Assembly (NCBI GenBank): GCA_000002445.1
Contig: CP000069.1
Location: 640,001-704,000, forward strand
Direction of reading: 5' to 3'
DNA from: Trypanosoma brucei
Lineage: Eukaryota
Length of the DNA stretch: 64,000 nt
This document shows, one piece after another, positions 21,001 through 42,381 of the stretch (its first letter is position 1; each line of letters begins with the position of its first letter). Below the pieces are notes generated by a model, which was given only the letters and a program-made list of their open reading frames with translations, was not told the origin of the DNA and did no database searches. The translations under genes and the position numbers were made by a program.

Positions 21001-24000
21001 ATAATAATAATAATAACAGGAATAAAAATAATAGGGAGTAATAATGGGGAAAAGAATATCATATCAAAGGAGAAGGAGGAATAAGGGAAAAAAAAAGGAA
21101 AAACGGGGGGGGGAAAAAAAAGGGAAACTAAACAAAAAAAAACGACAACAACAAAACAACAGCGGCATTGAGTACACTGCACGAGAGGAATTTTTTTAAA
21201 AAAAATTAAAACTTGTAAGTAATGACAGGGGAAACTAAAAAACGGGGATCATCACTTAAGTGACTAAAAGGAAGAAAGAGATAGAAAAACAAAAAAAAAG
21301 GGGAAAATGAAGGGAAGGGAAATCACATAATAAAGGAATATTTAAGAGGGTTAGGGAAGGAAGGAAGGGGGAAAAAAAAAAACAGAAACGGAAACGGAAT
21401 ACTTTGAGGCTAACAAAAAAAAAAGAGACAACGGAATAAAATAAATAAAAACGCCACAGAGAGGACGAACGAAAAAAAAATTGTTTTTTTTTTTTGATTC
21501 CACAGAAGGAGAGTTAGTAAAAAAAAAGAAGGAAAAGTAAGGGAGGGCGCGCACCGAAGTCGAACACACAAAAACACACAAATAAGCACGAAAATAAAAG
21601 AAAATTAGAAAAAGAAAAAGAAAGAAAAAAGAAACATAACGGAATTGAGAAAGTGTTGCCGAAAAGAGTAAAGTGAAACAACCAACACGACAAAAAGAGG
21701 CATAAGAAATATCGAACAACCGATATTAAAATAATCTCACAGATATGAAAGCGACGGTTGTTGTTGTTGCTGTTGTTTCTCTTTTTTTTCTTTTGCGCGT
21801 GTGTTGGTGTACTGATTCATTCATTCATTCGCTCACATCCGTCCAGAGGAATATAAAAACAAAAAACCAAAGAACAAAAGGGAATACGGCAGTTTTAAAT
21901 ATACGAATATTTACAAATATATGCAAAAAAGAAAAAAATGAGTATTAACTCGTAAATATAACTGCTGTGTTAGGTATAATAAACATAATTTAAACATATA
22001 AATATATAAATGCGTGTGCATTTGCATTTGTACACACGGATACGCCCAAACGCGACTTCTCAAAAAAAAAAAAAACAGCAGTGATAGAAAACAAAAACAA
22101 AAATAAGCGCTCCCGTGCGATGTACCACATTTCCGCAATTGGCGTCGGGGAGAAACCAAATCAAAGACAAAAGTAAGGAGGAGAAAAAATCAAAGGGGAA
22201 CATAAAGGAAGAATGAAGACGTGGGACATTTTATCTATTTTGCAATATAATAACATTAATAATAAACAAAACATGGGCGGGACTCACACGAAACACAGAC
22301 TAATATAGAAGTAGAAGCTATAAACACATAATTATATTTATTTACATTAATAATATCAAAAGGAAATACGCGTTAGAGTATGAAGAAACGGAAACTGAGA
22401 AGTAGTGAAAGGAGGAATGCCAAGGTTCACGCCATTTTTTAATGATCCAGCATTCAGAAGAGAAACAAACAACAAAAAGACAAAAAGGCATTCATTACCT
22501 CTTATTTGCCCTCACTTCCCTTTTTTTTTCTTTTTGGTAGTTTACTCTTGTCCCCCTCCATTTCTTTTTCTTTTTTAGTTCTCCGTTTGTTCGTTTACTC
22601 TTGTTTTTGTTTTTTGGTTTGTGTCTTTTGCCTCGCCACATGTGTCACATCAGTCCCCATCTGATTTCATTAAATCTTTCACTCTTCTGTAGCTTCATTT
22701 GGCCCCTTTATTCTCCTTTTTTTCTATTGCTTATTTATTTGGCGCATCTACGCACACATATACACATACGCAAGCATAAATTAAAGTAAAAAACATCAAC
22801 CGCTTCCTCCCCCCCTTTATTAAAAATGAAAATCATTATTTAACCATTATACATATGTGCACATATATATATATATATATATATAACGTAAATAAACACA
22901 AATACATCAACCAATAGATATATATATTTATATTCCCTCCTTCCTTCAATCAATCCAGTACTTCTTCCGTGATATTATTTCCCCTTTTCATTTACCTCTC
23001 CTTCTTCATCCCCACATAGTCCCCAAAGTAAAATTGAAAGAAAATGAAACAACGACAAAACAACTGAAAGGATGAAGACAACCCAACGTATGCAAGAAAC
23101 AAGGAAAAAGAGAGAGAGAAGGAAAAACAAAGTGAGAGGGGTTTAAATTTTAAAAAAAAATCCAATCACCCAGGTCCAAAAGTGAAGAGTGGACAAGAGA
23201 GGAGTCAAAAAAAAAAAAGGAAAAAGAAGAGAGTGAAGAACAGCAACAAACCATGCCAACAGTCAACTACAGTAGTAATAATAGTAATAATATAAAGGAA
23301 AACTGGAAAAAACATCAGAAAGTCAAGAGCACACTATGTGCATATATAGTGCTGACGCATAGATGCATCTTCACAAGGAGGGAACACCGTAACAACAACA
23401 ACAAAACAAAACAAAATTCTGAAGCAAAGCAAATCCAAGCAAACAAGTAAAAGGGGACAGGAATATTTTGCCTCGGTCACTTAACTCCGTGGCCACTCCC
23501 ACCACATCGAGCGAAACAGTATGCGGGGGAGAAAAGAAATGGACAACTATTGACGTATATAAACATAGATATATAGATAAATATCTGTTGTTGCTCTTGT
23601 TGTCATTGATGATGTTAAGGTGTGCGCCTCATATACAAATATGCATATTTAAATATATATATATATTTATATATATATACATGAAAAGGTATTAGACGAG
23701 GGATAATAACAAAATCAGGAATATTCCCTCCAAAGTACAAACGACTCGGTGCGGCCCAGTTGGTGGGGACGAAAGAGGAACAAAGAGCCCCGCTGAGCAC
23801 ACACACGCACACACACACAACAAAAAGGAGGAGAGAGGGTAAAGTGACAGAGGCAATCAAAGGAAATGAAAGGAAAATAGGAAGGTAGGGAAAATTAGTT
23901 TCGGAATACAACTTGGTTATATAGTATATAAAACCAATAAATACAAACCAGCAGACAGTGGTGCTGCTTCTTTTACTTCATTCCTTTCCCTCACTACTTA

Positions 24001-24215
24001 TTGTTATTTCATTTTTCTTCTTTATTCTCTTTTACCTTAATCCCTTTAGATTCTTTGATACTATTTTGTACCCGCCCATTCCCCCCTTTTTTTTAATTGG
24101 CTAATTGGGAACATAGAGGAAAAGGTATTCGTCTGGCGCCATGCACTTTAACTCGTCTTCTGGGGTAAATTTTGCACTGGCTTGTTTGTTTTCTTCGTTG
24201 ATTCCTGAGTTCCGC
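18100..24215. repeat. 6.1-kb gene-free AT-rich low-complexity block between BBS2 (5' end) and the kinase gene (3' end). It is packed with microsatellites: (CCAATA)n around 18835-18875, (ATA)n/(TAA)n, (CAA)n, (TA)n, (CATT)n, long A- and T-homopolymers. Blocks alternate between pyrimidine-rich and purine-rich on the plus strand.
   Basis: No ORF above about 120 aa. Every ORF the track lists here is poly-K/F/I/L low-complexity. Composition was read directly from the sequence. Confidence 0.8.
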
Positions 24216-26135
24216 TCAGCGGCTGACAATGGGCAACTTCGTCGTCCTCGCGCAAGCATCACCGGCTATTCCCACTCCCTTCCTTCGACCCTTGCGCGGG
24301 TCACTAGTACGACTATCGAGAGGTGCCGTGCTGCTGCTGCATGAGATGGACAGACGTCGCCGAACGTTGCTCTGGCGGAAGCTGTTCATGCGGGGACGCC
24401 GGCCAGATTCGATGCCAAGAAGACTCCCACATCCCCTCATGCCAATCACGGCATGTCCTGAAGGAATGTGAGTGCTAAGCAGTGAAACGCGGCTCCGTTC
24501 AGCCCCATTAATGGGGCTTGTCGTCGCAGCTGCAACCTTGTTCGTAACACTTGCCACATCGATTTGCGAACACGCGCTTGCAAGTGAGCAATCCATCAGG
24601 CTACAACTTCGTACGGAGTCCGCCTTTCCCTTGCCCTTTATCCATGGGTGTCGCAGCAACTGTCGCGCCGTTAGACGCTCCCTCGGGTTGGTACGGGTAC
24701 ATTGACGAATGAACTCTTTGGCACCCTCGGGAAGGTGCTCTGGGATGTGCCTCTCGAGTTCACCTCGTAGAATAGCAAACATAACTGCCATACAGTTGTC
24801 TAGCTGCCAGAAGGGGGGATGACCGGTTAGCATCTCAAGTACGCAACAGCCCACGGACCAGATATCAGCCGTGTAGCTGTGCCCACTGCAGTTAATCACT
24901 TCAGGCGCCATAAAATTCGGCGTTCCAGCGACACTATTCGTTACTATAGTTGACTGCAAATCTTTGCTAGTACCGAAATCACCAACTTTCAAGACGCCAT
25001 TCCCTGTTATAAACAAATTGTCCCCCTTCAGATCGCGGTGCACGATGCGCCGCTTGTGAAGGTATGCTAAACCCTCTAGCAACTGTCGAGTATAGTTACG
25101 AGTCTCCTCCTCGCTCAGAGCCCCTTCGGTTTTAAGCTTGCTAGCGATGGTGCCACCACTAATGTACTCCATGTATATCAACAGCGCGCAGCACCCCTCG
25201 TCGCGTCGTGAAGAAAAGTACTTCACAATATGCTTGTGATTCAACTTGCGCATCACACGAATTTCCCGTTCCAGCGCGCATAGTTGCTTCTCTGTGTCCC
25301 TGTCAATATCTGAAGATACAATAATCTGCTTCACCGCAAGCTCCGCCCCTGTGTCCAGGTCAGTTGCACGAAATACATCGCCGAACATCCCACGACCGAT
25401 ACGTTCCTCTATCCGCACATTGACGATCTTTCTACGTAGGGCAGTTTCTGTGGTGGTGGAGACACCCGGAGTTCGGAGAGCCGGAGAGGCACTTCGGTCT
25501 AACAGATTGATCGAGTTTCCGGTGACGTCTACAGCGGAAGTGCCAGTGACACCATTGAGTTGATTCGTGCTCGCCACACTGGCCCTCCCATCTCCAATGC
25601 ACGTTGTGCTACACGTGGCCACACTTTCCATCTCAAGTACTTTTGTAAACTCAAGCGTGGAGGATAGTAACGATGCACTGCACGACGGGTCACCGCTTGT
25701 CGAATTCGACCTGCTACAGCTTGCTTTGTCACCCTCCGGCGTGTTTTCCAATATTTGCGTTGGGACGTCCTTTGTCAATTCGCCTAACCACGAATCAAGT
25801 GCTTCTTGACTGGCTTCTAGCACTCCACTCGCCATTTCGCTCGCCACATCATCTACTTCCTCACTGAATGCCGTTACACTAGTGACTGCAGATAGTGTGT
25901 TACTCGGTGTTCGGTCGAGTTGTACGAGTTGGTTTGGTCTCTGAAGTGCCTTTACAGTCCGTACGATGGGGCGGGGGGTAACCGCACCGGTATGCAAACG
26001 ACTTGTATAAACACCAGTACCCGCTAGACGAGCGTTCACCGATATCAAATCACGACGCCGCAGGGCCTCCGCGGCTAGTGGCCGATGGCCGTCCTCCGGT
26101 GGAGCACACGGGTGGCAATTTTCCAAGAGGGACAT
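24216..26135 (-). CDS. Ser/Thr protein kinase of the STE group (MAP3K/STE11-like). A 235-aa N-terminal extension rich in S/T precedes the kinase domain.
   Basis: Canonical kinase subdomains are present. GxGxxG loop IGRGMFGDVF, catalytic HRDLKGDNLF, activation-segment DFG…TPNFMAPE, then DIWSVGCCVLEM. Best resemblance is to STE11/MEKK kinases. Confidence 0.8.
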   Translation of the reverse strand: MSLLENCHPCAPPEDGHRPLAAEALRRRDLISVNARLAGTGVYTSRLHTGAVTPRPIVRTVKALQRPNQLVQLDRTPSNTLSAVTSVTAFSEEVDDVASEMASGVLEASQEALDSWLGELTKDVPTQILENTPEGDKASCSRSNSTSGDPSCSASLLSSTLEFTKVLEMESVATCSTTCIGDGRASVASTNQLNGVTGTSAVDVTGNSINLLDRSASPALRTPGVSTTTETALRRKIVNVRIEERIGRGMFGDVFRATDLDTGAELAVKQIIVSSDIDRDTEKQLCALEREIRVMRKLNHKHIVKYFSSRRDEGCCALLIYMEYISGGTIASKLKTEGALSEEETRNYTRQLLEGLAYLHKRRIVHRDLKGDNLFITGNGVLKVGDFGTSKDLQSTIVTNSVAGTPNFMAPEVINCSGHSYTADIWSVGCCVLEMLTGHPPFWQLDNCMAVMFAILRGELERHIPEHLPEGAKEFIRQCTRTNPRERLTARQLLRHPWIKGKGKADSVRSCSLMDCSLASACSQIDVASVTNKVAAATTSPINGAERSRVSLLSTHIPSGHAVIGMRGCGSLLGIESGRRPRMNSFRQSNVRRRLSISCSSSTAPLDSRTSDPRKGRRKGVGIAGDACARTTKLPIVSR

Positions 26136-30663: not shown

Positions 30664-32097
30664 CTACACGATTTTATCAACTGGAAGAACGATGCCACGC
30701 TCGTTGGCTCCCTCCTCCCTTCCCGCCCCTTCGCGCAACATTTTAACCCGAACCTCACCCCGGGCCCACTCATCAGGGGCCACCAAGACGGCACGCAGGG
30801 CTCCTATGCGGTCCGCGTAATTAAATGCTTGGACAACCTTTTTCTTATCGAAAACGATATCGGCGCTTCGACCGGCGTCGCGCAACCGACGAAGGATGCT
30901 GAGGGCATGCGGCCGCATGGTCTCGTCGAAGGGAATCACAAGGTCGTCCACCACATGGTGTAATTCTGGCAACAGTTTCTTCTCATTCAGAAGTTCAACA
31001 ATAACGCAATCACCAAAGCCAAAGCCCACACAAGGCACCGCCGTCGGACTCCCGTACGTTGTCAGCAAGTTATCGTAACGACCACCACCACACAGTGCAC
31101 GAAAATTTCCATCGCGGTCAAAGCCCTCGAATACTATTCCAGTATAATAGGCAAGACCACGAACAACGCTAGCGTCGAAAATGACCCAGTCGCCAAAACC
31201 GTAAGCTTCGATCTGTGTAATAAAGTCTCTCAGTTCCCTCACTGCCTCATGCTCCTCACCGATGCGTTGCGCGATTTCATCAATGGTCTTAAGACTAAGA
31301 GTTGACGTAATGGCATCAACCACGTTGCTTTCAAGTCCAATGGCGGCGAGCTGTGCAACAACTTCCTCCCGCGGTAGTTTCTCCATCTTGTCGACGATAA
31401 CACACACAGGAGCGAACTTGTCGGCTGATACGCCGGCTTGCTCCACCACCGTCTGTAATATCTTGCGCGAGTTGATCTTAACACCAACATCTTTAGAGGA
31501 CAATCCCAAACTTTGCATAGCTGTACATGCAGCACACACCAACTCCACCTCTGACGAAACCGATTTGACACCTATAATGTCCATGTTCCACTGATAGTGT
31601 TCCCGACGACGCCCACGAGTAATTGCCTCATACCGCCAGCATTGAGGAATGGAGTACCACTTCGCTGGTAGCAACAGGGACCGACCCTTAGCAAGCAGTT
31701 GTCGTGCAAGTGATGGTGTCATCTCGGGGCGCAGAGCCACACGATGACCACCTTTCGTTATAAAGTTAAACATTTGCTCTGTAATCTCTTCCCCAGCTTT
31801 GCGGATGTACAGTTCCTCTGATTCCAAGACAGGCGAATCGTATTCCTCAAAACCAAACTTTCTCGCTGTGCTGTGGAATACATCAAAGAGATACTTGCGC
31901 AGACGCATTGTTTCAGGGGGGAAGTCCCGACAGCCTTGCACCGGCTCTGTCTCCACCATGTTCATTTGGCTCTTCTTCTTTGATTTCTTAGAAAGCGACC
32001 CGCCATCAGGTGTAATCAGCGCTTCCTTCTCCGCTATCAGACGCCTTAATTGATCAATTTCCGCAAGCAGGGCGGCGTTATCTACTGTCTTTGCCAT
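30664..32097 (-). CDS. HisRS: Histidyl-tRNA synthetase (class II aaRS).
   Basis: [38 protein letters not shown]…[14 protein letters not shown] (motif 1/2 region), …[24 protein letters not shown]…, and the class-II motif 3 …GGGRYDNL…. An anticodon-binding domain follows. Confidence 0.85.
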
Positions 32098-32578
32098 TCC
32101 ACAACGTAATGATCTGAATACACGCGTTGCTTTTAAAAAAAAAAAACTCCTTACCCACCAAAAGTTATATGCTTAATCTCAAAGAAGGAAAATGATAAAG
32201 CATCAAAAGAACAATTCGCTAGAAAAATAACAGAAAGGGAAGCAAAACAATTTGGTGAAGGACACGTGGAAGCAGCAATGAACCGCTGGCATGTCCTTGT
32301 GGGGAAAGGAGAGTATTACTCAACAACCCTGGGGTGCGTATGCGCCGACATTAGTCGTCGCTGGCACACAACGCCATGATCATCCGGGAAAGGTTGGCGA
32401 TCCAACCAACGATATTCCATAACGTGAACATAATAGTGATGCGTTTGTTTTTTTTTCGGTGGACACAACCTCATATAATTGACCAAGTATCACGGGTACA
32501 TTCCTGACATAGAATCACCACAAAACACTCATTAACCAAAAAAAGCGGCTAGCGATATATCGGAGACCATAACCTGTA

Positions 32579-32815
32579 TGTGTCACCAACCGCCCCCAGT
32601 GCCGCTAACAGTCCGCTGACCCGTGGTAAGAGACCAACAAATACAGGAGAATACCTTAATACCGTGCTCTGATCTCATTACTCTGCAATGCCGGGGGTAC
32701 ACTACGCGTATGTGTATCACGCGCAGGTGCGGCAGGCCGCCGGCTCTTGGCTTTCCCCCTCTGTAATACGGGGCACCGGCCTCGGACGTGCCAATGAGGA
32801 GGCTGGCAATGGTGG
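32579..32815 (-). mobile_element. Copy 1 of a 236-237-bp interspersed repeat, element-sense on the minus strand. It is probably retroposon-derived (ingi/RIME/L1Tc/SIDER-type 5' signature). It lies about 480 nt upstream of the HisRS ATG and about 630 nt downstream of the stop of the preceding gene.
   Basis: The reverse complement of 32579-32815 is base-for-base identical to 46772-47007 at every segment compared. Boundaries are sharp and neither flank shows similarity. The family assignment rests on my recollection of the published 77-79-nt retroposon signature and is not verified. Confidence 0.5.
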
Positions 32816-33448
32816 GGAACAACTTCACCCTCCATCCGCCGCGAACACTTGTGCCTCAACTGCGCTCCCAGAGTCCCGACTCACGGGCGGTGAAGATCAG
32901 TTTGAGTATGTCTTGTTCACAACGATAAAGCGCCCCGGACTAAACACAACTACCAATATACTCGTAAAACTTACCTGATTCCCAATAACCACATGACAAA
33001 ATTTACGCGTCACCCACAGCGGCGAGGAGCTTATGGTAAACATGCATATTTATTTGGGGGAACGCTCCAGGTGAACCCCAAGTTGTTTCAAACAACAGTG
33101 CCACACTGTGTAAAGAAATTGCACGCTCAAACGTCAACCATACTGCCCTAATGCAGCAACCACCTGAAGAGCACCCGACGAAACATCAAACGAACCAGGT
33201 GCACGCGGGCAGTCATTTCCACCTTTCCCACCAAAATCTCACTCACATCCGCGGGATCCGGTTCTAGTTGAACAAAGAGATTATTCTTTCCAACATCATT
33301 GCTGTGAGTTATCTGGAACCCCAGAACCGAACATGAACTTAGAAACGCCAACGAATTGCTCCTTGAGAGGCCCCACAAACACATTAAAAGGGAATCTAGT
33401 GGGGCTGTGACAATGCCTTCCTCAGCCACCCATGCATGCGTACGCGCC

Positions 33449-34018
33449 TTACCATGGGTCCGTCCGCCTCTCTTCACGGGTTATGGCAATATCCGGATCC
33501 CGAAGAACCCAGTGGCCGCGGTGCTGTGCAGGCACCTTCAAAGCCCTCTCACGGAGTGGGGTGGAAGGATCCGGTTTGGGGGGGTTAGGAAGCTCCGATG
33601 GCAGCACTGTTTCCTCCCGTTCGTCTAAAGAGAAGAAAGGATCAAGACGAGCAGCTACCGGCGCTTTGAAAACCCCATGTTGACGGCCAGCACTGGGCTG
33701 CATAGTTTGCTTCCCTATTATCATATCTAACTGCCGCATGAGCGGGTCGTCGTAAAGTTGGAAATATGATAATGCACCATGCAGCTTCTTTGTGTACAAC
33801 TTGGCGACTTTAAGCGAAGAAGACATAGTAAAGCACGGGCGGAAAGCTTCCAACTCTCTAAGGAACTCCCCCTCAATGTCGCTGCACGCTTTGGTGTTCT
33901 TGTCCGCCGCAGCGTTCTTATGGGCCAAATGAAGCTTTATTAGTTGAAGGGCCCCATCCAAAAAAGGGCCAGGGTTGTGGAGAGAGTTAGAACGAAGGGA
34001 CCGCGACAACCGCCACAT
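33449..34018 (-). CDS. Hypothetical protein, 189 aa.
   Basis: ORF on the polycistron strand with coding-like composition. No recognisable domain. Confidence 0.35.
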   Translation of the reverse strand: MWRLSRSLRSNSLHNPGPFLDGALQLIKLHLAHKNAAADKNTKACSDIEGEFLRELEAFRPCFTMSSSLKVAKLYTKKLHGALSYFQLYDDPLMRQLDMIIGKQTMQPSAGRQHGVFKAPVAARLDPFFSLDEREETVLPSELPNPPKPDPSTPLRERALKVPAQHRGHWVLRDPDIAITREERRTDPW

Positions 34019-34606
34019 TCGACCCCAATTGGTGGAAACGCAGGCACCAGCTCCCCACAGTTCTGCGATCCTACGATAGTACGCCTACTACATTGAGTGA
34101 AAATCAAAGGGGATGAACAGGGGGGAAAGGTCAAAGTATGCACCCGTTGATCTGTAACCGGCAAGTCGATCCCTTGCCAACCTAATGCACCGTGTACAAC
34201 TAGGAAAAAGAGGGTGTATTGTCTATTATCAACAACCTACCGAGCACGCGCAATCAACCCGTAAAACAACAACTCGCCAACCCATTAGTTCTCACCCTTC
34301 ACTTCACACTCATATGGGCAGACTCGCGAAGAAAAGAGGCACCTGAACACGGCACGGAGCCAAACCCATCTGTAACAGCGCCCTGTCCCTACATCAACGG
34401 ACCCTGCCGGGTTAAACCGGCAACACAGAAGACAGGAAGGGGTCGAGCAGATGAAACACAGTGCCGGAACGATAAAAAAAAATGGTATCAGGGTCCTTTC
34501 TTTGACGGAAACCCTATCACCGAAGGATTAAGGAAAAACTCGGAGAAAAGAGAGGGATAGATGACCCCAAACTGCTGGGCGACAGCGAAGGTGTGAGTAC
34601 CCCTCC

Positions 34607-35797
34607 TCACGGGTCACCCGTGTAACCCATCCTTTTGCTCTTCAAAATCTTTGGCATCTTCTTCCACTTCTCCTGGCGCGCAACATTCTTGAAGGCAGCA
34701 CTGCGATCATAAACACGGTCTTCGTGGACATAATCCTCAGGAAGAAGACCTTCCGCCTTCCACTTCTCTATTTTGTCCTTCACTATATCGTCAATTTTTG
34801 CATTAGGATTGTGCGAACTTGACCCCAGTGTTGAAGGAGTGTAGTCGAAGTAGAGCTGCCGCGGGGAAAATTGTCGCGGGGACCGAATGCTGCTGTGCCA
34901 ACAAACATGATAGTACATGTTATCATTCTCCTTGAGTGGTATGCGTAACTTTCCCGCCCCATGCCCACGGAGATCCGAATATGTGGTGCGCAAGAACTTC
35001 ACTTTCCGCTCGCCAAAATTGAACAAATACTTCTTGACGAACTCATAGACGTCAGCGTTTGTAACGGCATTAAGTGCAATGACAACAGACCTTGCCTCTA
35101 CACGATCTAGATCAGCCTGCACGTCCAACATCTCCTCCAGGACAGCCCGAACACCGTCCTCATCCCCCATGCGCCCAATGCTCTTTAACATAAAACTCCA
35201 CTGCGCTGTGTCGAAAAGTGGGGTGTAGTTCCACCCATCCTTCAAACAGCGATCAAACAGTGCCCTCCAGCCACTGTTGTCTGTCTTGTTGCAGTAAAAA
35301 AGTACAGATTTAACTAACGAAAGAGGGGGTTTTGCGGTGGCACCTTCCGCGGTAAAGCGCTGGTGACAGTATCGTTCCCACAGCTCCATAGCGCCGCCAC
35401 ATCTCTGGAAGGCGCAGTGCTGAAAGACCTTAGCCAACCAAAGATCTCTCGTCTTCTCATCGTCCACTAGAGGTGCCAAAGCCGTATAATCTGCAATGAC
35501 CTCTTCAGCAGGGGTTTTTGGTAGGGTGCGACCACGCGGTAGCTTCCGTAACTGTGGCTCCAGTGCAACACTAAAAGCGGGGTGCATATCAAATTCAATC
35601 CACACACCACGATACTTGTTAACCAACGAGTGGTTGCTCTGAAACGGTGCCGCGAAAGTTCGGTTTACTGAATGCGGCCGTTCCATTCCCTGGGGAAGAT
35701 TGTAATGCCAATGATACTGACTGTAGGCAACCATTGGCGAGGTGTCAGGATTCACAGGTGTATAGCCCACCGACCGGGGGCGGGTCGACCGAAACAT
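34607..35797 (-). CDS. Hypothetical protein, 396 aa, with an MFRSTRPRS N-terminus that looks like a mitochondrial presequence. Helical-repeat (PPR/TPR-like) character in the centre.
   Basis: Long ORF on the polycistron strand. Arg/Ser-rich amphipathic N-terminus. Central helical repeats (…WSFMLKSIGRMGDEDGVRAVLEEMLDVQADLDRVEARSVVIALN…). Confidence 0.45.
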   Translation of the reverse strand: MFRSTRPRSVGYTPVNPDTSPMVAYSQYHWHYNLPQGMERPHSVNRTFAAPFQSNHSLVNKYRGVWIEFDMHPAFSVALEPQLRKLPRGRTLPKTPAEEVIADYTALAPLVDDEKTRDLWLAKVFQHCAFQRCGGAMELWERYCHQRFTAEGATAKPPLSLVKSVLFYCNKTDNSGWRALFDRCLKDGWNYTPLFDTAQWSFMLKSIGRMGDEDGVRAVLEEMLDVQADLDRVEARSVVIALNAVTNADVYEFVKKYLFNFGERKVKFLRTTYSDLRGHGAGKLRIPLKENDNMYYHVCWHSSIRSPRQFSPRQLYFDYTPSTLGSSSHNPNAKIDDIVKDKIEKWKAEGLLPEDYVHEDRVYDRSAAFKNVARQEKWKKMPKILKSKRMGYTGDP

Positions 35798-36608
35798 ATG
35801 GTCCTAAAAGTGCGATGCACACACACCAAATGGTAATCAAAACGATGTCCCAGGTTCTTACCGCCTAGGAAAGGGGGAGTTGCAGGCGTTTTGTAACCTT
35901 CCGGGTACCGAAAGTTCCGGGTAGACTCATAAAGAAATTTGAAAGAGGGAGTAAAAGAGAAACGTGCGTTTTTCCCGCCCTCGCATATGTGCGCAAATTA
36001 TGCGCGGCTCATCAACCGCGGTAGACTGAAGGGAAAAACCGAAAGTAGAGTTAATATTCCTCCCTCCGTTTAGCACCACTATCACGACCCTCCTATTTAC
36101 CGTGATTCGTGGATTCCCACCTCACAGGGTGACAAAAAATACGGAAGTATTCGTGGTTGCCTCACCCCAACGTCTTTTGGTCTTGCTTCCTTTTCTAACT
36201 GTGACGAAATCAAAGGAAAGGAATCTAACCCCGGGGGAAGGAAACATTTCATTTCCTCCATCCGGGAAACCCTACACTCCGCCTTCTATCGCTTTGAATT
36301 CCAATTTCACGTCATCCATGGCACCAAGAATAGAACACGTACAAGACAAACAACATACCTCCGCAACACCTATTGATTCCTCCCATTCCCTTGGCCCCAA
36401 TGTTTGTCGTTACCATCAAGTATATAAAAGCAACGAAAACCCCCTAAACCCCAATTTCACCCTCCCATCCTTTTCCATACTCCATGCACTTCCTTATACA
36501 ACAAATTCTACGCTTACACTCCCGATTGGCAACGCCCGTCGTCACCTAAAACGAGCGGCCTACGTACATTGCGAATTTGTTAGCATACGTAACGCCATCT
36601 CACCCCAC

Positions 36609-38741
36609 TTAGGCCGCCTTGTTCCAGGAAACTAGGCAGTGAGCACCAAGTGCGCACTCGTCGAACCTTGTAAGGCCACCGGTCTGCTCCAAGCGCAGAA
36701 CGCGGTATCCAGAGCGCAACAGTAGGGGAGGAAATGCAGTAGTGAAATCAAACGAAGAGCTATCCTGTACAAACTTGCAGTCAATCACCGCAACTGTTGT
36801 TTCATTACATCCTTCAAAAACAATTTTACTGCCCTTTACACTTGCTTTCCCAGCGCCATACACTCGCGCCGTGCTACTCGAGAGGGGTAGCCCCTTGATC
36901 TCTTGGGGGCCAGCAAGGATATCCACCGAAACACTCGTTGTTAATTTTCCATTTGTGTTGTTTTTGATGAGATACCCGCTCCGCCCATTGTCTACAAACC
37001 GACCTTGGGCCCATAGCCCTCCCTCTCTTGAATTCCCGTGGTCTATCAACTGAACCCCCATCTGAGTGGCAATCCCAATGCATTGCTCGCTGCTGTGCTC
37101 GTCGACGTCAGAGAAAAATGCAAAGTGGTCATCAAGACTGTCCTGGTTCGGTTTTAAAGAAGGAAGTACATCGGCCGTAAGAACTACCACCTCCCATGGT
37201 TTGAGGTTTGTTTTCTTCTTTGCATACTTCAAGAATAAGAGGTCGGACAAAGCCGCAGACTCGCTTTTGTCTTCCCTATCGACAGCTCCCCCCACCACAA
37301 TCTTTAGCTCGTCCAAATTCTCCCTCTTCAACGTAAATTCTTCGCCTAATTCCAGTTTTTCCAGTTGCTCGCGTAAGTGTTGCTTATTTATGATGGCTTC
37401 ACCATTAATATGAGTAAACCAGTCATCTTTCGATACTCCTGCCTTCGCTGCTGGAGTTCCTGTAACAACATCCGTCACGCGCACACCCAAGCCATCTCTG
37501 TTCATGTCCGCCATCAGACTTCCGACAAATGGCTTCAACGGACTTTGGTATCCAAGTACGAGCACCTTCTTCCGTTGAGCAGCGGGGCTGAATTTTGGAT
37601 CGCTAATGATAGCACCCTCGAACATGAGCCCCTTTGCTAACATCGTACCAAGCCCCTTGCTCAGTATTTCAGCTAGCTCATCCTTCAGTTGTACCGGCAA
37701 TGTATTTGGTGGGGATAGACACAGAATAATAGGGTATGGGATAGTCGAGAAACCACTTGTCTTGATACCCTCTATGATGCACGTCAAGGGGCAGCTTCCA
37801 CTGCAGAGCACACCTTCGCTATTCCTTTTTATTTTTAAGACGAACGCTCTGGAGTTGTCAGAAAGCGCCCGCTGGAGGTCACTTTCACTTTCAATACGTA
37901 TGGTTTTTATCAGATATCGAGTCAGCGGCTGTGTCATGTCTTGCCAAACACTTGTTGTGCGCGAGGGGTCTAACGCGTTGTTGGTCATCAACCCCATCAA
38001 ATACGTATTGAAGTTGTACCTGTGAACTATGCCACCGAAACGGTGGTTGTACTTCTCTACAATCTGGGCGTCGGCACGTTCATTGCCTTGGGTAACAGTC
38101 ACAAACTTCCCAAATTGCTCTAGAGTCATCACCTCACCGCCCTCTGCAAAACGCGGAAACAGATCCATCGTGGGAATCAGAGATGCGGAGTTAAGGTGAT
38201 CAATCAGCACCGAGGCGAAGTTGGTCGGTGCCCTGGAATCTCGCTTCACGTCTTTGCCCTCAGTCACATACTTTTCTGAACTTGTGGTGCATTGGTTGGC
38301 AGGGCTGCCACCGCTACTCATCCATGTGTTAAGCAGACGGAAGAAGCCAGCATCCACATAAAACTCTTTAACCGAAGGGAGCGTCTCAGATATGGTCTTC
38401 AGTTTTTCCCTCTCCGCAATTTTAGAAATTATTTCCACCACCGTTTCCATCTTCAACCGAAACTTCGTGCGTGTGATCTCAGCGCACGAATTCATGAAAC
38501 TCAAAGAAACTGCGTCACGCTCCTCCTGGGAATGAAAGGTGAAACGCTCACTCAAAACTGACTCCACGCTTCTCAGAAAAGTCTTAAGATATTGCTCTGC
38601 ACCTGTCTGGTGCTCGTAAGCCGCCGGGTTCGAGTGGTTCTTATATCCACCACCTTGACGTTGGGACTCATCACTTAAGCGGTTTCCCGGTGGGGGAGCT
38701 AGTTGATCTCTCTCAAAACTTTTAGAATTGCACAAACCCAT
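36609..38741 (-). CDS. PLC: Phosphoinositide-specific phospholipase C (PI-PLC): EF-hand, X domain, linker, Y domain, C2. The probable start is Met46 at 38741 (MGLCNSKS, an N-myristoylation + palmitoylation motif). The track ORF extends to 38876.
   Basis: X-box residues …HRYNFNTYLMG… (compare SSHNTYL) and …STIPYPIILCLSPPN… (compare EYPVILSLENHC). Y-box …SSEQCIGIATQMGVQLIDHGNS…FVDNGRSGYLIKN… (compare GCQMVALNFQT…NGGCGYVLKP). 'cat' at 38739-38741. Trypanosome PI-PLCs are known to be acylated at MGxC N-termini. Confidence 0.7.
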   Translation of the reverse strand: MGLCNSKSFERDQLAPPPGNRLSDESQRQGGGYKNHSNPAAYEHQTGAEQYLKTFLRSVESVLSERFTFHSQEERDAVSLSFMNSCAEITRTKFRLKMETVVEIISKIAEREKLKTISETLPSVKEFYVDAGFFRLLNTWMSSGGSPANQCTTSSEKYVTEGKDVKRDSRAPTNFASVLIDHLNSASLIPTMDLFPRFAEGGEVMTLEQFGKFVTVTQGNERADAQIVEKYNHRFGGIVHRYNFNTYLMGLMTNNALDPSRTTSVWQDMTQPLTRYLIKTIRIESESDLQRALSDNSRAFVLKIKRNSEGVLCSGSCPLTCIIEGIKTSGFSTIPYPIILCLSPPNTLPVQLKDELAEILSKGLGTMLAKGLMFEGAIISDPKFSPAAQRKKVLVLGYQSPLKPFVGSLMADMNRDGLGVRVTDVVTGTPAAKAGVSKDDWFTHINGEAIINKQHLREQLEKLELGEEFTLKRENLDELKIVVGGAVDREDKSESAALSDLLFLKYAKKKTNLKPWEVVVLTADVLPSLKPNQDSLDDHFAFFSDVDEHSSEQCIGIATQMGVQLIDHGNSREGGLWAQGRFVDNGRSGYLIKNNTNGKLTTSVSVDILAGPQEIKGLPLSSSTARVYGAGKASVKGSKIVFEGCNETTVAVIDCKFVQDSSSFDFTTAFPPLLLRSGYRVLRLEQTGGLTRFDECALGAHCLVSWNKAA

Positions 38742-39032
38742 GTCTCCCACCCTGAGAAAGTGGAACGGACAATTTAACGGGACGTAACATACCCCAAAAG
38801 AGAAAGTAGAAAAAACAGAAGGCAACTGAGCTTCATCGGATTTCAAAAGCGGTAGCACAGACACAAGCCAGTACAAGCAGGCAAACGTGTGAATTCACCT
38901 ATCCTTATGACTTTCAGATTTTTTTCAGAAGTGGTCAAGTGAAAGTAGGGAAAAAATTCAAAAAAAAGCGGCAGTGATACCGCACACAGTAAGCTAAATA
39001 ATGTATTGCGTCTCCCGTAGCAGATTTCCCGC

Positions 39033-39233
39033 TTAGCCGGCCTTTCCAGGCGGCTGTTTGTTCATACGGAGCTTCTCGCCAGGTTTCAACGTCTTGGCAA
39101 GGTAACGCTGAGTGTACTTCAGGCGCTTGAAGGCACGCCCCCGGGGCTGCTTCTTCTTCTCCTGCTTGCTAACCTTCGGCGTCTGGTTTTTCACCTTGCC
39201 GGCGCGGGCCAGCGATCCGTGGACCTTCCCCAT
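39033..39233 (-). CDS. RPS30: 40S ribosomal protein S30 (eS30), copy A, 66 aa.
   Basis: [45 protein letters not shown]… versus eukaryotic eS30 [35 protein letters not shown]. The track ORF 39033..39371 contains it from internal Met47. Confidence 0.8.
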
Positions 39234-39498
39234 ATCTTGCCTTGCTGCTTTTACAGTGAGACCTGTGATAAGTAGGGTAAAAAATAAAAAAAGTAAAGGT
39301 GATAGAATCTTTAAGCGCAGCACGTGCGAAGTGCGCAACCCAATTGGAGGCGACTTCGTAAATACAACCACTTACGAGAAAGTTAGATATTTTCAACAAT
39401 GTTCACAGGATGATATGCACCCGAATACTGAAAGAAAAAAAACAAGGGCAAGGAGGAAAAAAAATTATGCACGTTGTTTTCCGCGGCAGATTTCCCGC

Positions 39499-39699
39499 TT
39501 AGCCGGCCTTTCCAGGCGGCTGTTTGTTCATACGGAGCTTCTCGCCAGCTTTCAGCGTCTTGGCAAGGTAACGCTGAGTGTACTTCAGGCGCTTGAAGGC
39601 ACGCCCCCGGGGCTGCTTCTTCTTCTCCTGCTTGCTAACCTTCGGCGTCTGGTTTTTCACCTTGCCGGCACGGGCCAGCGATCCGTGGACCTTCCCCAT
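39499..39699 (-). CDS. RPS30: 40S ribosomal protein S30 (eS30), copy B, 66 aa. Tandem duplicate with a 466-bp period; it differs from copy A by one residue (Ala versus Pro) and by silent changes.
   Basis: Same protein sequence as copy A apart from the single Ala/Pro substitution (…KTLKAGEKL… versus …KTLKPGEKL…). About 220 nt (the CDS plus about 15 nt of 3' flank) is duplicated. The 5' flanks differ. Confidence 0.8.
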
Positions 39700-39949
39700 G
39701 TTGAGAACCTTGGAAAACTAGCAAGAAAGAAGAAACCAACATTCAGCGGATCAGGCAGCGAAATTTTTTAAAATGCCAACTACACAACACACAACATAGC
39801 ACGGCCACCAGATACGAGAAAACGTAAACTACCAACGCATTTTTTTTAATCATTCAAAATGTCACTAAAAAAGAAAAGTAGGGGGAACTAACGATTACAT
39901 CTATAGCACACACAATCATTTACATGAAACACAATATTCAGACGGTACT

Positions 39950-40702
39950 TCATCGCTTCCTTCTCAGCGTGACTGGTAACGGAGTGGGAGAGAAGCGCGG
40001 TGGTCCCGTAAGAAAGGTCCTCTCAGTCGTCGAGGGCAAACCGTCACTCCGAGCCCCAGCAGGGCAGCGTTTAGATTTCTGCTGTGGATCAGACCCACCA
40101 GATACGCACTCTCCTGTTACCGCCGGTCCCCCACTACCACCTGAATAACTATCTTTGGTCATCTCTCTCTGTTTATACGTCCAATACGAGCGCCGGTAAG
40201 GGGTAAGCATGGCAGGAAATGAAGACGTGTACGTTCCCTTTATTCTGTTGTATGAGCGCAGCAGACTACCCCGCAAGTCTCTATCGCACGAAGCAACACC
40301 GTCCACAGCGGCCGTATCTGCACAGTTGTCACTACTTTTGCGTCCTTTCCTTTGCGGTGCACTGTGCTTTCTCACACTACCTTGTGAATCTCCTCCCGCA
40401 GAGGCAGCGTGCTGTAGGGGCGTGGCGACACCAACCGCGGCCCCTGTGGTCTCAGTGGTTAACTCATCGGCCTTCCTAGAACGCTGACTTCCGTCGACAC
40501 ACTTCCGTTTTGACATAGTGAGGTAGGAGGCCTTCGAATGTTCCTGCCTCGTCGGGACGTACGGTGCCCGACACGTTTGAAATTTCAAGGAAAGCAAATA
40601 CTTTTGCATATAACGTGTGCCCTGAAGCCAATCCTCAAAAGGTTCCGGGTGGTCAAGCGCCTTAACCAAGCTCCGGCTGTTAAACCTATCCGCACCTGTC
40701 AT
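39950..40702 (-). CDS. Hypothetical protein, 250 aa, Ser/Arg/Gly-rich and probably disordered.
   Basis: ORF on the polycistron strand. Low-complexity S/G/R-rich composition. No domain recognised. Confidence 0.3.
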   Translation of the reverse strand: MTGADRFNSRSLVKALDHPEPFEDWLQGTRYMQKYLLSLKFQTCRAPYVPTRQEHSKASYLTMSKRKCVDGSQRSRKADELTTETTGAAVGVATPLQHAASAGGDSQGSVRKHSAPQRKGRKSSDNCADTAAVDGVASCDRDLRGSLLRSYNRIKGTYTSSFPAMLTPYRRSYWTYKQREMTKDSYSGGSGGPAVTGECVSGGSDPQQKSKRCPAGARSDGLPSTTERTFLTGPPRFSPTPLPVTLRRKR

Positions 40703-40835
40703 GGCTCAGAAGATCTTCTCCCCACATCCCAAAAAGAGGGCAAAAAAAATTAAAACAAAGTGAGATTCAGAAATGACGATCTCTCCGACGCAATCAAAAA
40801 AGAAAAAAAAGCAACAAGTGAAGTGACAGTATTCT

Positions 40836-40856
40836 CCCCCCCCCCCCCCCCCCCCC
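40836..40856. repeat. Homopolymer (C)21 on the plus strand, which is (G)21 on the transcribed minus-sense strand, in the spacer between the NudC-like gene and the downstream hypothetical gene.
   Basis: Read directly: attct + 21 C + ggtgg. Confidence 0.9.
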
Positions 40857-40915
40857 GGTGGAAAAGGCCGACACCTCCGTTGAGAGGGAAATGGGGAACA
40901 AAAGGGACAATACCG

Positions 40916-41500
40916 TTAGTTAGAGGTACCACCACGCTGCATCAATTCCCGGAGGCGCAACTCGTCGCTAGAAGGTAAATTTAACGCTTTTTGTCGCTGA
41001 TCAAACATCATTTTCGCGATCGTGGCCCGTGCGCTGTCGTCGAGTTCGGAGATATGTTTGCTCGGTGGCCTGAAAGTCTTCATGTCTATTTGTCTCTCAT
41101 TAGTTGTGACACATGGCCACCACTCTTCGTACTGGGCGTTCGTTTTCACCAAAGTCACCACAAGCACACTTTTATCCTCCACACACCACGTACATTCGTC
41201 TACTTTCACTGGTTTGTACAGGTCACCAGAAATCAAGGGTGATTGACCCTTCATGCCTATTGTTAACGAGGAAACTTTTACGTCCACATTAATCATCTTT
41301 GTGGGTGTGTCAGACGGCAGTGGAACCTTAACGATCACTTCAGTGTCTGTTTGACCAAACGAGTATCTTCCGTAATCGCCTCCACACTCCTCGTTACACG
41401 GTAAGAGGTCAGCCATGTCCTTCTGACTTTCAACTAAAGACATCTGCTGGCTCTTTTGTGACAAGCAATCTCCTATAAAGAAGCGGTAGCACTTCAACAA
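40916..41500 (-). CDS. NUDC: NudC-like protein (CS/p23-fold nuclear-distribution protein C family, short form).
   Basis: …LISGDLYKPVKVDECTWCVEDKSVLVVTLVKTNAQYEEWWPCV…ISELDDSARATIAKMMFDQRQKALNLPSSDELRLRELMQ aligns with the human NudC C-terminus (…[42 protein letters not shown]…[40 protein letters not shown]). Confidence 0.65.
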   Translation of the reverse strand: MLKCYRFFIGDCLSQKSQQMSLVESQKDMADLLPCNEECGGDYGRYSFGQTDTEVIVKVPLPSDTPTKMINVDVKVSSLTIGMKGQSPLISGDLYKPVKVDECTWCVEDKSVLVVTLVKTNAQYEEWWPCVTTNERQIDMKTFRPPSKHISELDDSARATIAKMMFDQRQKALNLPSSDELRLRELMQRGGTSN

Positions 41501-42381
41501 AGCGAAGTGGATGTGGGGGGAACGCAGCGATTGTCAGAGCAGCATTTGGGATAACATACACTCTGTAAGCCTGTCTTCGCCGAATTTTGGCAGCAAACAA
41601 ATCAATCTAGAAGCAAGAAGGCTGATCTCTGTAACACATTTATCCAGCAACACACTCTTACCCGCTCCCTGGTAACTCAGTCAAAGCCGCATCGTAATGG
41701 GAGCTTCGGTCCATTCAACTACCGTCCATCGTGACAAACTCAACCATTTCTTGAGAACAAAAAAGGTAAGTACATTTATGTAAACAAGATGAATAAAGTA
41801 AATACCGTGCGGTGCAACTTCATCGTGAGGCATCACTGCATACGAGACCATAACCTTACAACGATTAAAATTCTTATATACAAGTCGACTCGTTCACTAA
41901 TTTCAGCGACAAAGCGCGGTCCAAGTCGCAACAACGATGACATCCCTTCATCCTAAAATGTAAACATTCCTTTATCCAGATCGCACTACCAGGTACGGAA
42001 ACGGATAAGCAATCTACTTCCAAATAATGATTCTTCCACGGGTAAATTGCCTGGGGAGACCGACCCTCAAATACGTCAATCCAACTGTATCCCCTAGAAG
42101 TCCACCGACCCATATCGGCTTCGACACAACAGTGAGGTTCACCTTCACTCTTATCTGCTCAGATAGAGAGAGCACCAGCATTCATTTCGTTAACTTATCA
42201 TTATCTCGCACTATATAAGTGCCGACGCCATACCACACAACAACAACAACAACAACAAGATTAAACAGCCAAAATGCGGGTGCTGGGTCTGGTTTAAAAA
42301 AAAAGTGAAGGTAAAGATGTAAATGTCATGAGTATCTGAAAAAAAGTAAAAACTCATGGAAAGTCCTGGCATCCCTCATTC

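What the first reader, a model, noticed from the sequence alone, without database searches (positions are those of the whole stretch)
32579..32815. Two 100%-identical inverted copies of a 236-237-bp element, 14 kb apart, one inside a polycistron and one in the strand-switch region
32579-32815 and 46772-47007 are exact reverse complements at every segment compared, and the identity stops abruptly at both ends. The six-frame track shows the same artefactual 'MPGVHYAYVYHAQVRQAAGSWLSPSVIRGTGLGRANEEAGNG' ORF at both sites on opposite strands. Perfect identity between dispersed non-coding copies implies a very recent insertion, gene conversion, or strong selection. The element carries what I recall as the trypanosomatid retroposon 5' signature (see next finding). 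Copy 1 is sense-oriented in the spacer upstream of HisRS, possibly within the 3' UTR of the preceding gene, where SIDER-type elements are known to influence mRNA stability in Leishmania. Copy 2 sits in the putative Pol II start region.
Basis: partly seen in the sequence, partly recalled or inferred. Interest (0 to 1): 0.75.

Follow-up and report, generated by a model that had tools for sequence, protein, structure and literature searches.

The report
Inverted retroposon-relic pair kept identical
Two identical, inverted 236-bp copies of a decayed Trypanosoma brucei ingi/RIME-type retroposon 5' end lie 14 kb apart; the same base changes appear in both copies in other strains, so copying between them (gene conversion), not selection or recent insertion, most likely keeps them alike.

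Summary
Window 32579-32814 and 46772-47007 are exact reverse complements over 236 nt (not 237). They are the only copies in the window, and the flanks share nothing.

The window is T. brucei-group DNA: its HisRS is 100% identical to PDB 3hri. Copy 1 lies in the spacer between a 189-aa gene and HisRS, inside a minus-strand polycistron. RNA-seq contigs show it is transcribed contiguously with the 189-aa coding sequence, so it probably sits in that gene's 3' UTR. Copy 2 lies in the divergent strand-switch region, where the AT skew changes sign.

Element nt 7-79 align colinearly with the T. brucei RIME/ingi 5' signature (55 of 68 aligned bases, z about 12). The signature is decayed. The first 6-9 nt and the CGTG promoter motif are gone, and there is no poly(A) tail or target-site duplication. 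The element does not resemble TbSIDER1 or TbSIDER2.

Both copies sit at the same positions in three other assemblies. In two of them both copies carry the same three substitutions, while between-strain divergence of the element matches the regional background. That is concerted evolution, most simply by gene conversion.

Verdict: a new example of known kinds, with modest interest. Genome-wide copy number and similarity of nt 80-236 to ingi/RIME could not be tested.

The parts
32579..32814 (-). Copy 1 of the 236-bp unit. The retroposon-sense strand is the minus strand, the same as the surrounding polycistron. It lies in the spacer between the 189-aa gene (33449-34018) and HisRS (30664-32097).
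   Evidence: exact inverted repeat; orientation of the signature; RNA-seq contigs L016-L018 run from the 189-aa coding sequence through the copy.
46772..47007 (+). Copy 2 of the 236-bp unit. The retroposon-sense strand is the plus strand. It lies in the divergent strand-switch region, 977 nt upstream of Met-45795 of the first minus-strand gene and 3 kb upstream of the first plus-strand gene.
46778..46850 (+). Decayed ingi/RIME-type 5' signature (Pr77-like) in copy 2. Element nt 7-79 align with TbRIME signature nt 10-80. CGTG is replaced by TTGG, and the first 6-9 nt (CCCTGGCGA) are not conserved.
   Evidence: score 43 against a maximum of 26 in 2000 dinucleotide shuffles; 55 of 68 aligned bases identical; family HMM E = 0.49.
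32736..32808 (-). The same decayed signature in copy 1.
32143..33965 (-). Span of the longest RNA-seq contig (L016) that joins the 189-aa coding sequence to the downstream spacer including copy 1. It marks the probable 3' UTR-bearing transcript; L017 and L018 end at 32353 and 32449.
   Evidence: The runs are RNA-seq because contig L010 starts with the spliced-leader 3' end.
46021..50028 (.). Divergent strand-switch region with no ORF of 150 aa or more. The plus strand is A/C-rich to the left of copy 2 and T/G-rich to the right, and the AT skew changes sign at about 46,900-47,200, which is at copy 2.

Best explanation
The two units are relics of the 5' end of an old ingi/RIME-lineage non-LTR retroposon, a DIRE-like fragment. 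One sits in a probable 3' UTR inside a polycistron and the other in the neighbouring divergent strand-switch region, in inverted orientation.

They are identical because the two copies, 14 kb apart on one chromosome, repeatedly copy sequence from one to the other without crossing over (ectopic gene conversion). Neither recent insertion nor conservation of the sequence explains the identity. The 5' edge of the repeat is sharp because it is the retroposon's own 5' end. The 3' edge probably marks where homology usable for conversion stops.

Shown here: the exact repeat, the similarity of the signature, synteny in other strains, substitutions shared between the copies, and transcription of copy 1. 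Inferred: the conversion mechanism, the origin as two old insertions (or one insertion plus a patch copy), and the absence of a sequence-specific function. The promoter motif and the ribozyme P1 helix of the signature are lost, which argues against function.
For: - Exact 236-nt inverted repeat with no similarity in the flanks.
- Element nt 7-79 are colinear with TbRIME signature nt 10-80, 55 of 68 aligned bases identical. The score is 43, against a window background of mean 13.3, sd 2.4 and next best 27, and against a maximum of 26 in 2000 dinucleotide shuffles. RIME and ingi of T. brucei itself are the closest of the 24 signatures from PMC4748587 Additional file 1.
- Both copies are syntenic in DAL972 (L015), GCA_003543875.1 (L014) and T. 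equiperdum OVI (L002, L006).
- In L014 and L015 both copies carry 12G>T and 72C>T. 79C>G is in both DAL972 copies and in copy 1 of L014; copy 2 of L014 lacks one base there. In the window and OVI neither copy carries any of them.
- 194G>C is in copy 2 only in L014 and L015, yet appears in copy 1 in two of three RNA-seq contigs.
- Between-strain identity of the element is 98.3-98.7%, against 98.8% for the surrounding 20 kb. The sequence therefore changes at the background rate, but in step in both copies.
- Precedent: Tschudi et al. 2012 (PMC3447711) list seven essentially identical inverted repeats of 0.4-10 kb in T. brucei.
Against: - nt 80-236 could not be compared with the ingi/RIME body because no such sequence was obtainable. 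They show no similarity to Tvingi or L1Tco 5' regions.
- The family-wide signature HMM is not significant (E = 0.49).
- There is no poly(A) tail and no target-site duplication, so retroposition is not directly shown.
- Both copies end at exactly the same 3' base, which a unit-length mobile element would also explain.
- A third, unseen donor copy elsewhere in the genome cannot be excluded.
- The comparison rests on only two haplotype groups.
- Position 194 in the RNA contigs could reflect allelic heterozygosity or reads from copy 2.
Confidence: 0.6

Rival explanations
1. Exapted promoter. The Pr77-derived 5' end still acts as an RNA polymerase II promoter. Copy 2 would fire rightwards into the plus-strand polycistron and copy 1 would act as an internal booster upstream of HisRS, and identity would be kept because both must bind the same factors.
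For: - Pr77 of L1Tc is a Pol II promoter and binds TBP and SNAP50 (PMC1874656, PMC8190864).
- Copy 2 points towards the plus-strand genes and sits where the AT skew changes sign.
- Both copies are in the sense orientation relative to local transcription.
- Retroelements are reported to accumulate in strand-switch regions (PMC4748587 abstract).
Against: - The CGTG downstream promoter element, reported as essential for Pr77 activity, is replaced, and the first nucleotides, also reported as critical, are not conserved.
- The element diverges between strains at the background rate.
- A GT-rich stretch that could serve as a conventional plus-strand start region lies 2 kb further right at about 49.0-49.6 kb.
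- No transcript or start-site data were available for copy 2.
Confidence: 0.08
2. Double-stranded RNA source or antisense regulator. If minus-strand transcription starts to the right of copy 2, the antisense of the unit (copy 2) and its sense (copy 1, in the 3' UTR of the 189-aa gene) occur in RNA from the same strand. They could pair over 236 bp, feeding the RNAi pathway or regulating that mRNA. Identity would then be selected, as Tschudi et al. speculated for larger repeats.
For: - All seven large, essentially identical inverted repeats surveyed in T. brucei yield siRNAs (PMC3447711).
- Copy 1 is in a stable transcript.
- The geometry permits pairing.
Against: - The strand-composition switch lies at copy 2, and the G/T-rich minus-strand stretch lies to its left, which suggests minus-strand transcription begins downstream of copy 2 (inference only).
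- RNA-seq contigs cross copy 1 without breaking at the repeat edges, which suggests copy 2 flanks are little represented in RNA (inference).
- The unit is shorter than the shortest of the seven inverted repeats that survey reported (422 bp).
- No small-RNA data could be examined.
Confidence: 0.1
3. A small, still unnamed family of short (about 236-bp) ingi-related elements, of which these are two members among more copies elsewhere in the genome. Identity would then reflect recent spread or homogenisation from a master copy.
For: - Both copies share exactly the same 5' and 3' ends.
- The 5' end coincides, within about 3 nt, with the retroposon 5' terminus.
- The unit fits none of the described T. 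brucei classes (PMC3820030).
Against: - Protein-level searches with ORFs from both strands of the unit found only the two known loci: P0001 (DAL972 copy 2) and P0002 (copy 1 in RNA-seq). An exhaustive phmmer search gave only spurious repeat proteins.
- There is no poly(A) tail and no target-site duplication.
- Both loci are fixed and syntenic in all four sequences.
Confidence: 0.12
4. Inversion end-points. The inverted pair marks, or can mediate, inversion of the 14-kb block 32815-46771, which would move the strand-switch point between the two sites.
For: One arm lies exactly at the strand-switch point and the other inside the polycistron. Inverted repeats are classical substrates for inversion (general knowledge).
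Against: The window and all three other assemblies show the same arrangement. Synteny with T. cruzi or Leishmania could not be tested.
Confidence: 0.03
5. Assembly artefact, such as a collapsed repeat or chimeric contig.
For: Perfect identity of dispersed non-coding copies is a common sign of assembly error.
Against: Both copies have distinct unique flanks in three other assemblies (DAL972, GCA_003543875.1 and T. equiperdum OVI), and copy 1 appears in transcript contigs. The unit is a short 236 bp, and the other assemblies carry their own variants of it.
Confidence: 0.01

Closest known systems
T. brucei ingi / RIME retroposons and their degenerate relatives (DIRE)
   Same: The unit starts with a sequence colinear with nt 10-80 of the 79-nt ingi/RIME 5' signature, and T. 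brucei RIME and ingi are the best matches among 24 family signatures. Like DIREs it is decayed and non-coding. One copy is in a strand-switch region, where such elements are reported to accumulate (PMC4748587).
   Different: It is 236 bp, against about 500 bp for RIME and about 5 kb for ingi and DIRE. It has no poly(A) tail and no target-site duplication. It has lost CCCTGG at the start and the CGTG motif. No reverse-transcriptase remnant lies nearby. Similarity of the body to ingi/RIME is untested.
SIDER elements (TbSIDER1, TbSIDER2; Leishmania SIDER1/2)
   Same: It is a short, degenerate, signature-bearing retroposon relic lying in the sense orientation in a probable 3' UTR, which is the position where Leishmania SIDERs affect mRNA stability.
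   Different: It shows no sequence similarity to TbSIDER1, TbSIDER2 or LmSIDER2 beyond a few signature bases. It is less than half their length and lacks a poly(A) tail. SIDER exaptation is reported not to have happened in trypanosomes (PMC3820030).
Long, essentially identical inverted repeats of T. brucei (IR1-IR7, Tschudi et al. 2012)
   Same: It is an intrachromosomal inverted pair separated by kilobases of unique DNA with essentially perfect identity, the same unexplained high identity those authors remarked on.
   Different: The arms are 236 bp, shorter than the shortest of the seven they reported (422 bp), and none of theirs is on chromosome 6. siRNA production is unknown here. This analysis adds cross-strain evidence that identity comes from concerted change rather than conservation.
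L1Tc Pr77 promoter / L1TcRz HDV-like ribozyme
   Same: It is a homologous stretch of sequence at the same place, the first ~80 nt of the element.
   Different: The essential CGTG motif is absent. The 5' strand of helix P1 (nt 1-7) is not conserved, so the cleavage-competent fold cannot form as in L1Tc. Rfam finds no ribozyme. T. brucei SIDER signatures with milder defects were inactive in vitro (PMC4035085).

Membership tests
ingi/L1Tc-clade retroposons (ingi, RIME, DIRE, SIDER) | Conserved 76-79-nt signature (Pr77 hallmark) at the 5' end | tested here: inconclusive
   The pairwise alignment to the TbRIME signature is clearly non-random: nt 10-80 against element nt 7-79, 55 of 68 aligned bases, score 43 against a shuffle maximum of 26. 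A profile HMM of 24 family signatures gives only E = 0.49 and matches the second half alone. The first 6-9 nt are not conserved.
ingi/L1Tc-clade retroposons (ingi, RIME, DIRE, SIDER) | Poly(dA) tail at the 3' end | tested here: not met
   The unit ends ...GGTGACACA and is followed by unrelated non-A sequence at both sites. The nearest A-run is 130 nt beyond copy 1.
ingi/L1Tc-clade retroposons (ingi, RIME, DIRE, SIDER) | Target-site duplication flanking the insertion | tested here: not met
   The 12-nt flanks are GAAGTTGTTCCC / TACAGGTTATGG for copy 1 and TCGGCAACGTAG / GCCCAAGGCGTC for copy 2. Neither pair contains a repeat.
ingi / RIME (T. brucei) | Body (nt 80-250) similar to the ingi/RIME 5' half | not testable with these tools
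   No Tbingi/RIME sequence beyond the 79-nt signature could be obtained. Protein searches returned only T. cruzi L1Tc, collection scans were empty, and none of the fetched loci contains one.
Pr77 promoter | Downstream promoter element CGTG at +25 to +28, reported as essential for activity | tested here: not met
   The aligned position reads CCTCATTGGCACG where the signatures read CCTCAACGTGGTG. The requirement is taken from PMC4748587.
L1TcRz-type HDV-like ribozyme | P1 helix formed by nt 1-7 with nt 31-37; nested double pseudoknot | tested here: not met
   In ingi/RIME, CCCTGGC pairs with GCCAGGG. Here the 5' strand is CAC(---)CAT and the 3' strand is TCCGAGG, which are not complementary (by inspection). 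There is no Rfam ribozyme hit even at E <= 10. The fold of the sense strand is not exceptional, z = -1.25.
TbSIDER1 / TbSIDER2 | About 570-620-bp unit similar to the family consensus | tested here: not met
   blastn with word size 7 against TbSIDER2 (full length), TbSIDER1 alpha and beta (5' 330 nt) and LmSIDER2A gives nothing better than E = 0.7. The reference sequences come from the PMC4035085 supplement.
DIRE (long degenerate ingi-related element) | Remnants of endonuclease, reverse-transcriptase or RNase H coding sequence downstream of the signature | tested here: not met
   tblastn of 53 RT-family proteins (nearly all T. cruzi L1Tc) against the window gives no hit below E = 0.1. Endonuclease remnants were not specifically tested.
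siRNA-producing long inverted repeats of T. brucei | Near-identical inverted arms separated by unique DNA | tested here: met
   236 of 236 nt identical, 13,957 nt apart. The arms are shorter than the shortest of the seven listed (422 bp).
siRNA-producing long inverted repeats of T. brucei | 22-25-nt AGO1-bound small RNAs map to the arms | not testable with these tools
   No small-RNA data were accessible.

The most novel reading that the evidence does not exclude
The pair is a functional module and not junk. On this reading a retroposon 5' end has been domesticated at the core of a divergent Pol II start region, and its inverted twin sits in the 3' UTR of a gene 14 kb into the neighbouring polycistron. 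The two would be kept matched so that a promoter-proximal transcript from copy 2 can pair with, and regulate (by siRNA or antisense), the mRNA carrying copy 1, or so that both recruit the same transcription factors. This would be a rare case of a sequence-specific link between transcription initiation and mRNA control in a trypanosome.
Probability: 0.06. Interest if true: 0.7.

Novelty: new member of a known kind. Interest (0 to 1): 0.3.

Why it matters
On the best reading this is a small, clean natural example of gene conversion between short inverted repeats 14 kb apart in T. brucei. It gives a simple non-selective explanation for the very high identity noted for that parasite's larger inverted repeats. 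It also shows that a retroposon relic can stay recognisable through homogenisation alone.

Practically, the two loci cannot be told apart by short reads in TREU927-like strains, so RNA-seq, ChIP-seq or small-RNA signal on either copy must be treated as multi-mapping. Position 194 separates the copies only in DAL972-like strains.

If instead the pair proved functional, as a promoter or a double-stranded RNA source, it would bear on how Pol II start regions are defined in trypanosomes. Nothing found here requires that.

Tried and rejected
- **Known RNA genes.** Rfam at gathering thresholds on the whole window, Rfam at E <= 10 around copy 1, and ARAGORN found no RNA gene or ribozyme.
- **Structured RNA.** The sense strand folds with z = -1.25 and the antisense with z = +1.9, so a structured RNA is not supported.
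- **Further copies or ingi relatives via proteins.** The sense ORF gave nothing. The antisense ORF found only the two known loci. An internal 47-aa ORF is not on record. phmmer against 1.84 billion representatives gave only two spurious repeat proteins.
- **Obtaining Tbingi/RIME DNA.**
  - A search with a translated T. congolense L1Tco RT segment returned only T. cruzi L1Tc.
  - Sequence strings were not found in papers.
  - Scans of metagenome and prokaryote genome collections were empty.
  - No fetched locus holds a true signature.
- **Other 5' regions.** Tvingi and L1Tco 5' regions show no similarity to nt 80-236.
- **More strains.** Further look-ups returned the same three assemblies.
- **Sample identity.** The organism of GCA_003543875.1 and the ERR79291xx study could not be identified from the literature.
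- **Rejected readings.** Assembly artefact, very recent insertion, membership of TbSIDER1/2, and an active Pr77 promoter or ribozyme in canonical form were considered and rejected.

Full report
**Observation**

The window holds one long inverted repeat: 32579-32814 and 46772-47007, 236 nt, 100% complementary, 13,957 nt apart (string check). A sensitive blastn of the unit against the window finds no third copy, complete or partial. The 400 nt on either side of the two copies align no better than shuffled sequence.

**Source and setting**

- The 477-aa ORF at 30664-32097 (-) is 100% identical, over the whole 436-residue native part of the crystallised construct, to the histidyl-tRNA synthetase of PDB 3hri. 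It is about 87% identical to 3hrk. [quoted passage not shown]
- Exact-protein look-ups place the window's genes in T. b. gambiense DAL972 chromosome 6 (FN554969), in T. equiperdum OVI contigs and in the chromosome-level assembly GCA_003543875.1.
- All long ORFs from 1 to 46020 are on the minus strand and those from 50029 onward are on the plus strand. So 46021-50028 is a divergent strand-switch region.
- Copy 1 lies in the 1.35-kb spacer between a 189-aa gene (33449-34018) and HisRS.
- Copy 2 lies in the strand-switch region, 977 nt upstream of Met-45795 of a TPR protein gene (Pfam) and 3 kb upstream of the first plus-strand gene.
- Left of copy 2 the plus strand is A/C-rich and includes a C13 run at 46588-46600. 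To the right it becomes T/G-rich. The AT skew changes sign at about 46,900-47,200, which is at copy 2.

**Anatomy**

I took the 79-nt ingi and RIME signatures and 22 other family signatures from Additional file 1 of PMC4748587.

- Element nt 7-79, read on the plus strand of copy 2 and the minus strand of copy 1, align colinearly with TbRIME signature nt 10-80. 55 of 68 aligned bases match, or about 75% if gaps are counted.
- The local score is 43. Across 2,324 window segments the mean is 13.3 and the sd 2.4, and the best unrelated segment scores 27. The maximum in 2000 dinucleotide shuffles is 26.
- T. brucei's own RIME and ingi are the best of the 24 signatures (scores 43 and 40); all others score 22 or less.
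- The retroposon-sense strand therefore agrees with the local direction of transcription at both sites, and the 5' edge of the repeat falls within about 3 nt of the retroposon's 5' terminus.

The signature is decayed in several ways.

- A profile HMM of the 24 signatures reaches only E = 0.49 and aligns the second half alone.
- The initial CCCTGGCGA is not conserved.
- The CGTG motif, reported as essential for Pr77 promoter activity (PMC4748587), reads TTGG.
- The 5' strand of ribozyme helix P1 is missing, so the HDV-like fold described for L1Tc cannot form in the same way. T. brucei SIDER signatures with milder defects were inactive in vitro (PMC4035085).
- Rfam finds no ribozyme even at E <= 10.
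- There is no poly(A) tail and no target-site duplication at either copy.
- The unit has no similarity to TbSIDER1, TbSIDER2, LmSIDER2A, or the L1Tco and Tvingi 5' regions beyond a few signature bases.
- No L1Tc-like reverse-transcriptase remnant occurs anywhere in the window.
- Neither strand folds unusually well as RNA.

**Other strains**

Both copies, each in its own unique flanks, are present in T. equiperdum OVI (L002/L013 and L006, both 100% identical to the window), in DAL972 (L015) and in GCA_003543875.1 (L014).

| Variant (element position) | Window and OVI | DAL972 (L015) | GCA_003543875.1 (L014) |
|---|---|---|---|
| 12G>T | neither copy | both copies | both copies |
| 72C>T | neither copy | both copies | both copies |
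| 79C>G | neither copy | both copies | copy 1; copy 2 lacks one base here |
| 194G>C | neither copy | copy 2 only | copy 2 only |

- The missing base in L014 copy 2 sits in a G/C run and may be a sequencing error.
- Three identical substitutions arising independently at two loci is not credible, so sequence has passed between the copies since the two haplotype groups split.
- Between-strain identity of the element (98.7% for copy 1, 98.3% for copy 2) matches that of the surrounding 20 kb (98.8%). The unit is therefore not unusually conserved; it changes at the ordinary rate, in both copies together.
- This favours gene conversion over selection, and it excludes recent insertion.

**Transcription**

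- Logan contigs from runs ERR7929156-64 are RNA-seq assemblies. Contig L010 begins with the 3' end of the spliced leader (GTTTCTGTACTATATTG) joined to window position 43879.
- Three contigs from these runs (L016, L017, L018) run from inside the 189-aa coding sequence through the whole of copy 1, ending at 32143, 32353 and 32449.
- The HisRS transcript contig starts matching at 32132, just after a T12 tract and an AG.
- Copy 1 is thus part of RNA contiguous with the upstream gene, most simply its 3' UTR. Unprocessed precursor RNA cannot be ruled out.
- These contigs carry the DAL972-type variants, and two of the three also carry 194C at copy 1. This hints at further exchange, with the caveat that heterozygosity or reads from copy 2 could produce it.
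- The contigs do not break at the repeat edges, which suggests the flanks of copy 2 are poorly represented in RNA. This is an inference.

**Copy number**

No genome-wide DNA search was possible. Indirectly, ORFs from both strands of the unit retrieve only a DAL972 'hypothetical protein, unlikely' at copy 2 (P0001) and a 96-aa ORF at copy 1 in four RNA contigs (P0002). An exhaustive phmmer search found only spurious repeat proteins. This is weak evidence that no other copies exist.

**Model**

The best-supported model has four parts.

1. An old insertion, or two, of an ingi/RIME-lineage element left 5' relics at both sites.
2. The 5' edge of the shared segment is the retroposon terminus, because the upstream flanks were never related.
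3. Ongoing gene conversion without crossover between the inverted copies keeps 236 bp identical. Sequence beyond the 3' edge, no longer convertible, has diverged past recognition or was never shared.
4. Crossovers would invert 14 kb of a polycistron and would presumably be selected against.

The repeat, the signature similarity, the synteny, the shared substitutions and the transcription of copy 1 are shown. The conversion mechanism, the history and the lack of function are inferred.

**Rivals**

- An exapted Pr77 promoter is appealing because of the position and orientation of copy 2, but the motif reported as essential is gone and there is no excess conservation.
- A double-stranded RNA or siRNA role has a precedent in the seven large, essentially identical inverted repeats of T. 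brucei, all of which yield siRNAs (PMC3447711). It needs antisense transcription through copy 2, for which I have no evidence.
- A small unnamed mobile family, an inversion substrate and an assembly artefact are progressively less likely, for the reasons given in the rival entries.

**Comparison with known elements**

Retroposon relics in trypanosome strand-switch regions and untranslated regions are well known (PMC4748587, PMC3820030), as are near-perfect inverted repeats in T. brucei (PMC3447711). This pair does not fit RIME, ingi, DIRE or SIDER as defined, and it is shorter than any of the seven inverted repeats that survey listed. It is nevertheless a new example of these known kinds and not a new kind. 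The one piece of added knowledge is the cross-strain evidence for concerted evolution.

**Scores**

Interest is 0.3. The most novel reading not excluded is a functional promoter/3' UTR pairing module, with a probability of about 0.06.

Noticed in passing
window 38996-39699: Two tandem ribosomal protein S30 genes (39033-39233 and 39499-39699, minus strand) lie inside a 238-nt direct repeat with 95% identity. Their products differ at one residue (KPGEKL vs KAGEKL), and the KAGEKL form is not on record in the contig collection.
   Followed up: partly
L010 nt 1-17; window 43879: An RNA-seq contig starts with the spliced-leader 3' end joined at window 43879. This maps the trans-splice site of the 267-aa gene (42382-43185, minus strand) and implies a 5' UTR of about 694 nt. 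Five contigs of this gene all end in a (GTT)n/(CTT)n microsatellite at about 42237, whose composition differs from the window.
   Followed up: partly
L003 nt 1-1800 (Logan ERR7929157); junction at window 32132: A transcript contig joins the HisRS mRNA, starting exactly after the T12 + AAAAG acceptor, to 1.8 kb of sequence absent from the window. That sequence carries a 556-aa ORF on the opposite strand with no Pfam match. It could be a chimeric assembly or a rearrangement.
   Followed up: partly
window 46300-46770 and 49000-49600: Strongly strand-asymmetric stretches flank the strand-switch core. The left one is G/T-rich on the minus strand, with a G13 run at 46588-46600. The right one is G/T-rich on the plus strand, with GT repeats at about 49340-49365. 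They resemble the GT-rich start regions described for T. brucei and are candidate start sites of the two polycistrons.
   Followed up: no
window 18100-24216: About 6 kb inside the minus-strand polycistron has no minus-strand ORF of 150 aa or more. It is filled with A-rich and (TA)n low-complexity repeats, which make up most of the direct-repeat families reported.
   Followed up: no
L015 2796-3239 (DAL972): The DAL972 annotation carries a 147-aa 'hypothetical protein, unlikely' (P0001) whose first 42 residues are the antisense translation of copy 2. It is an annotation artefact created by the repeat.
   Followed up: yes
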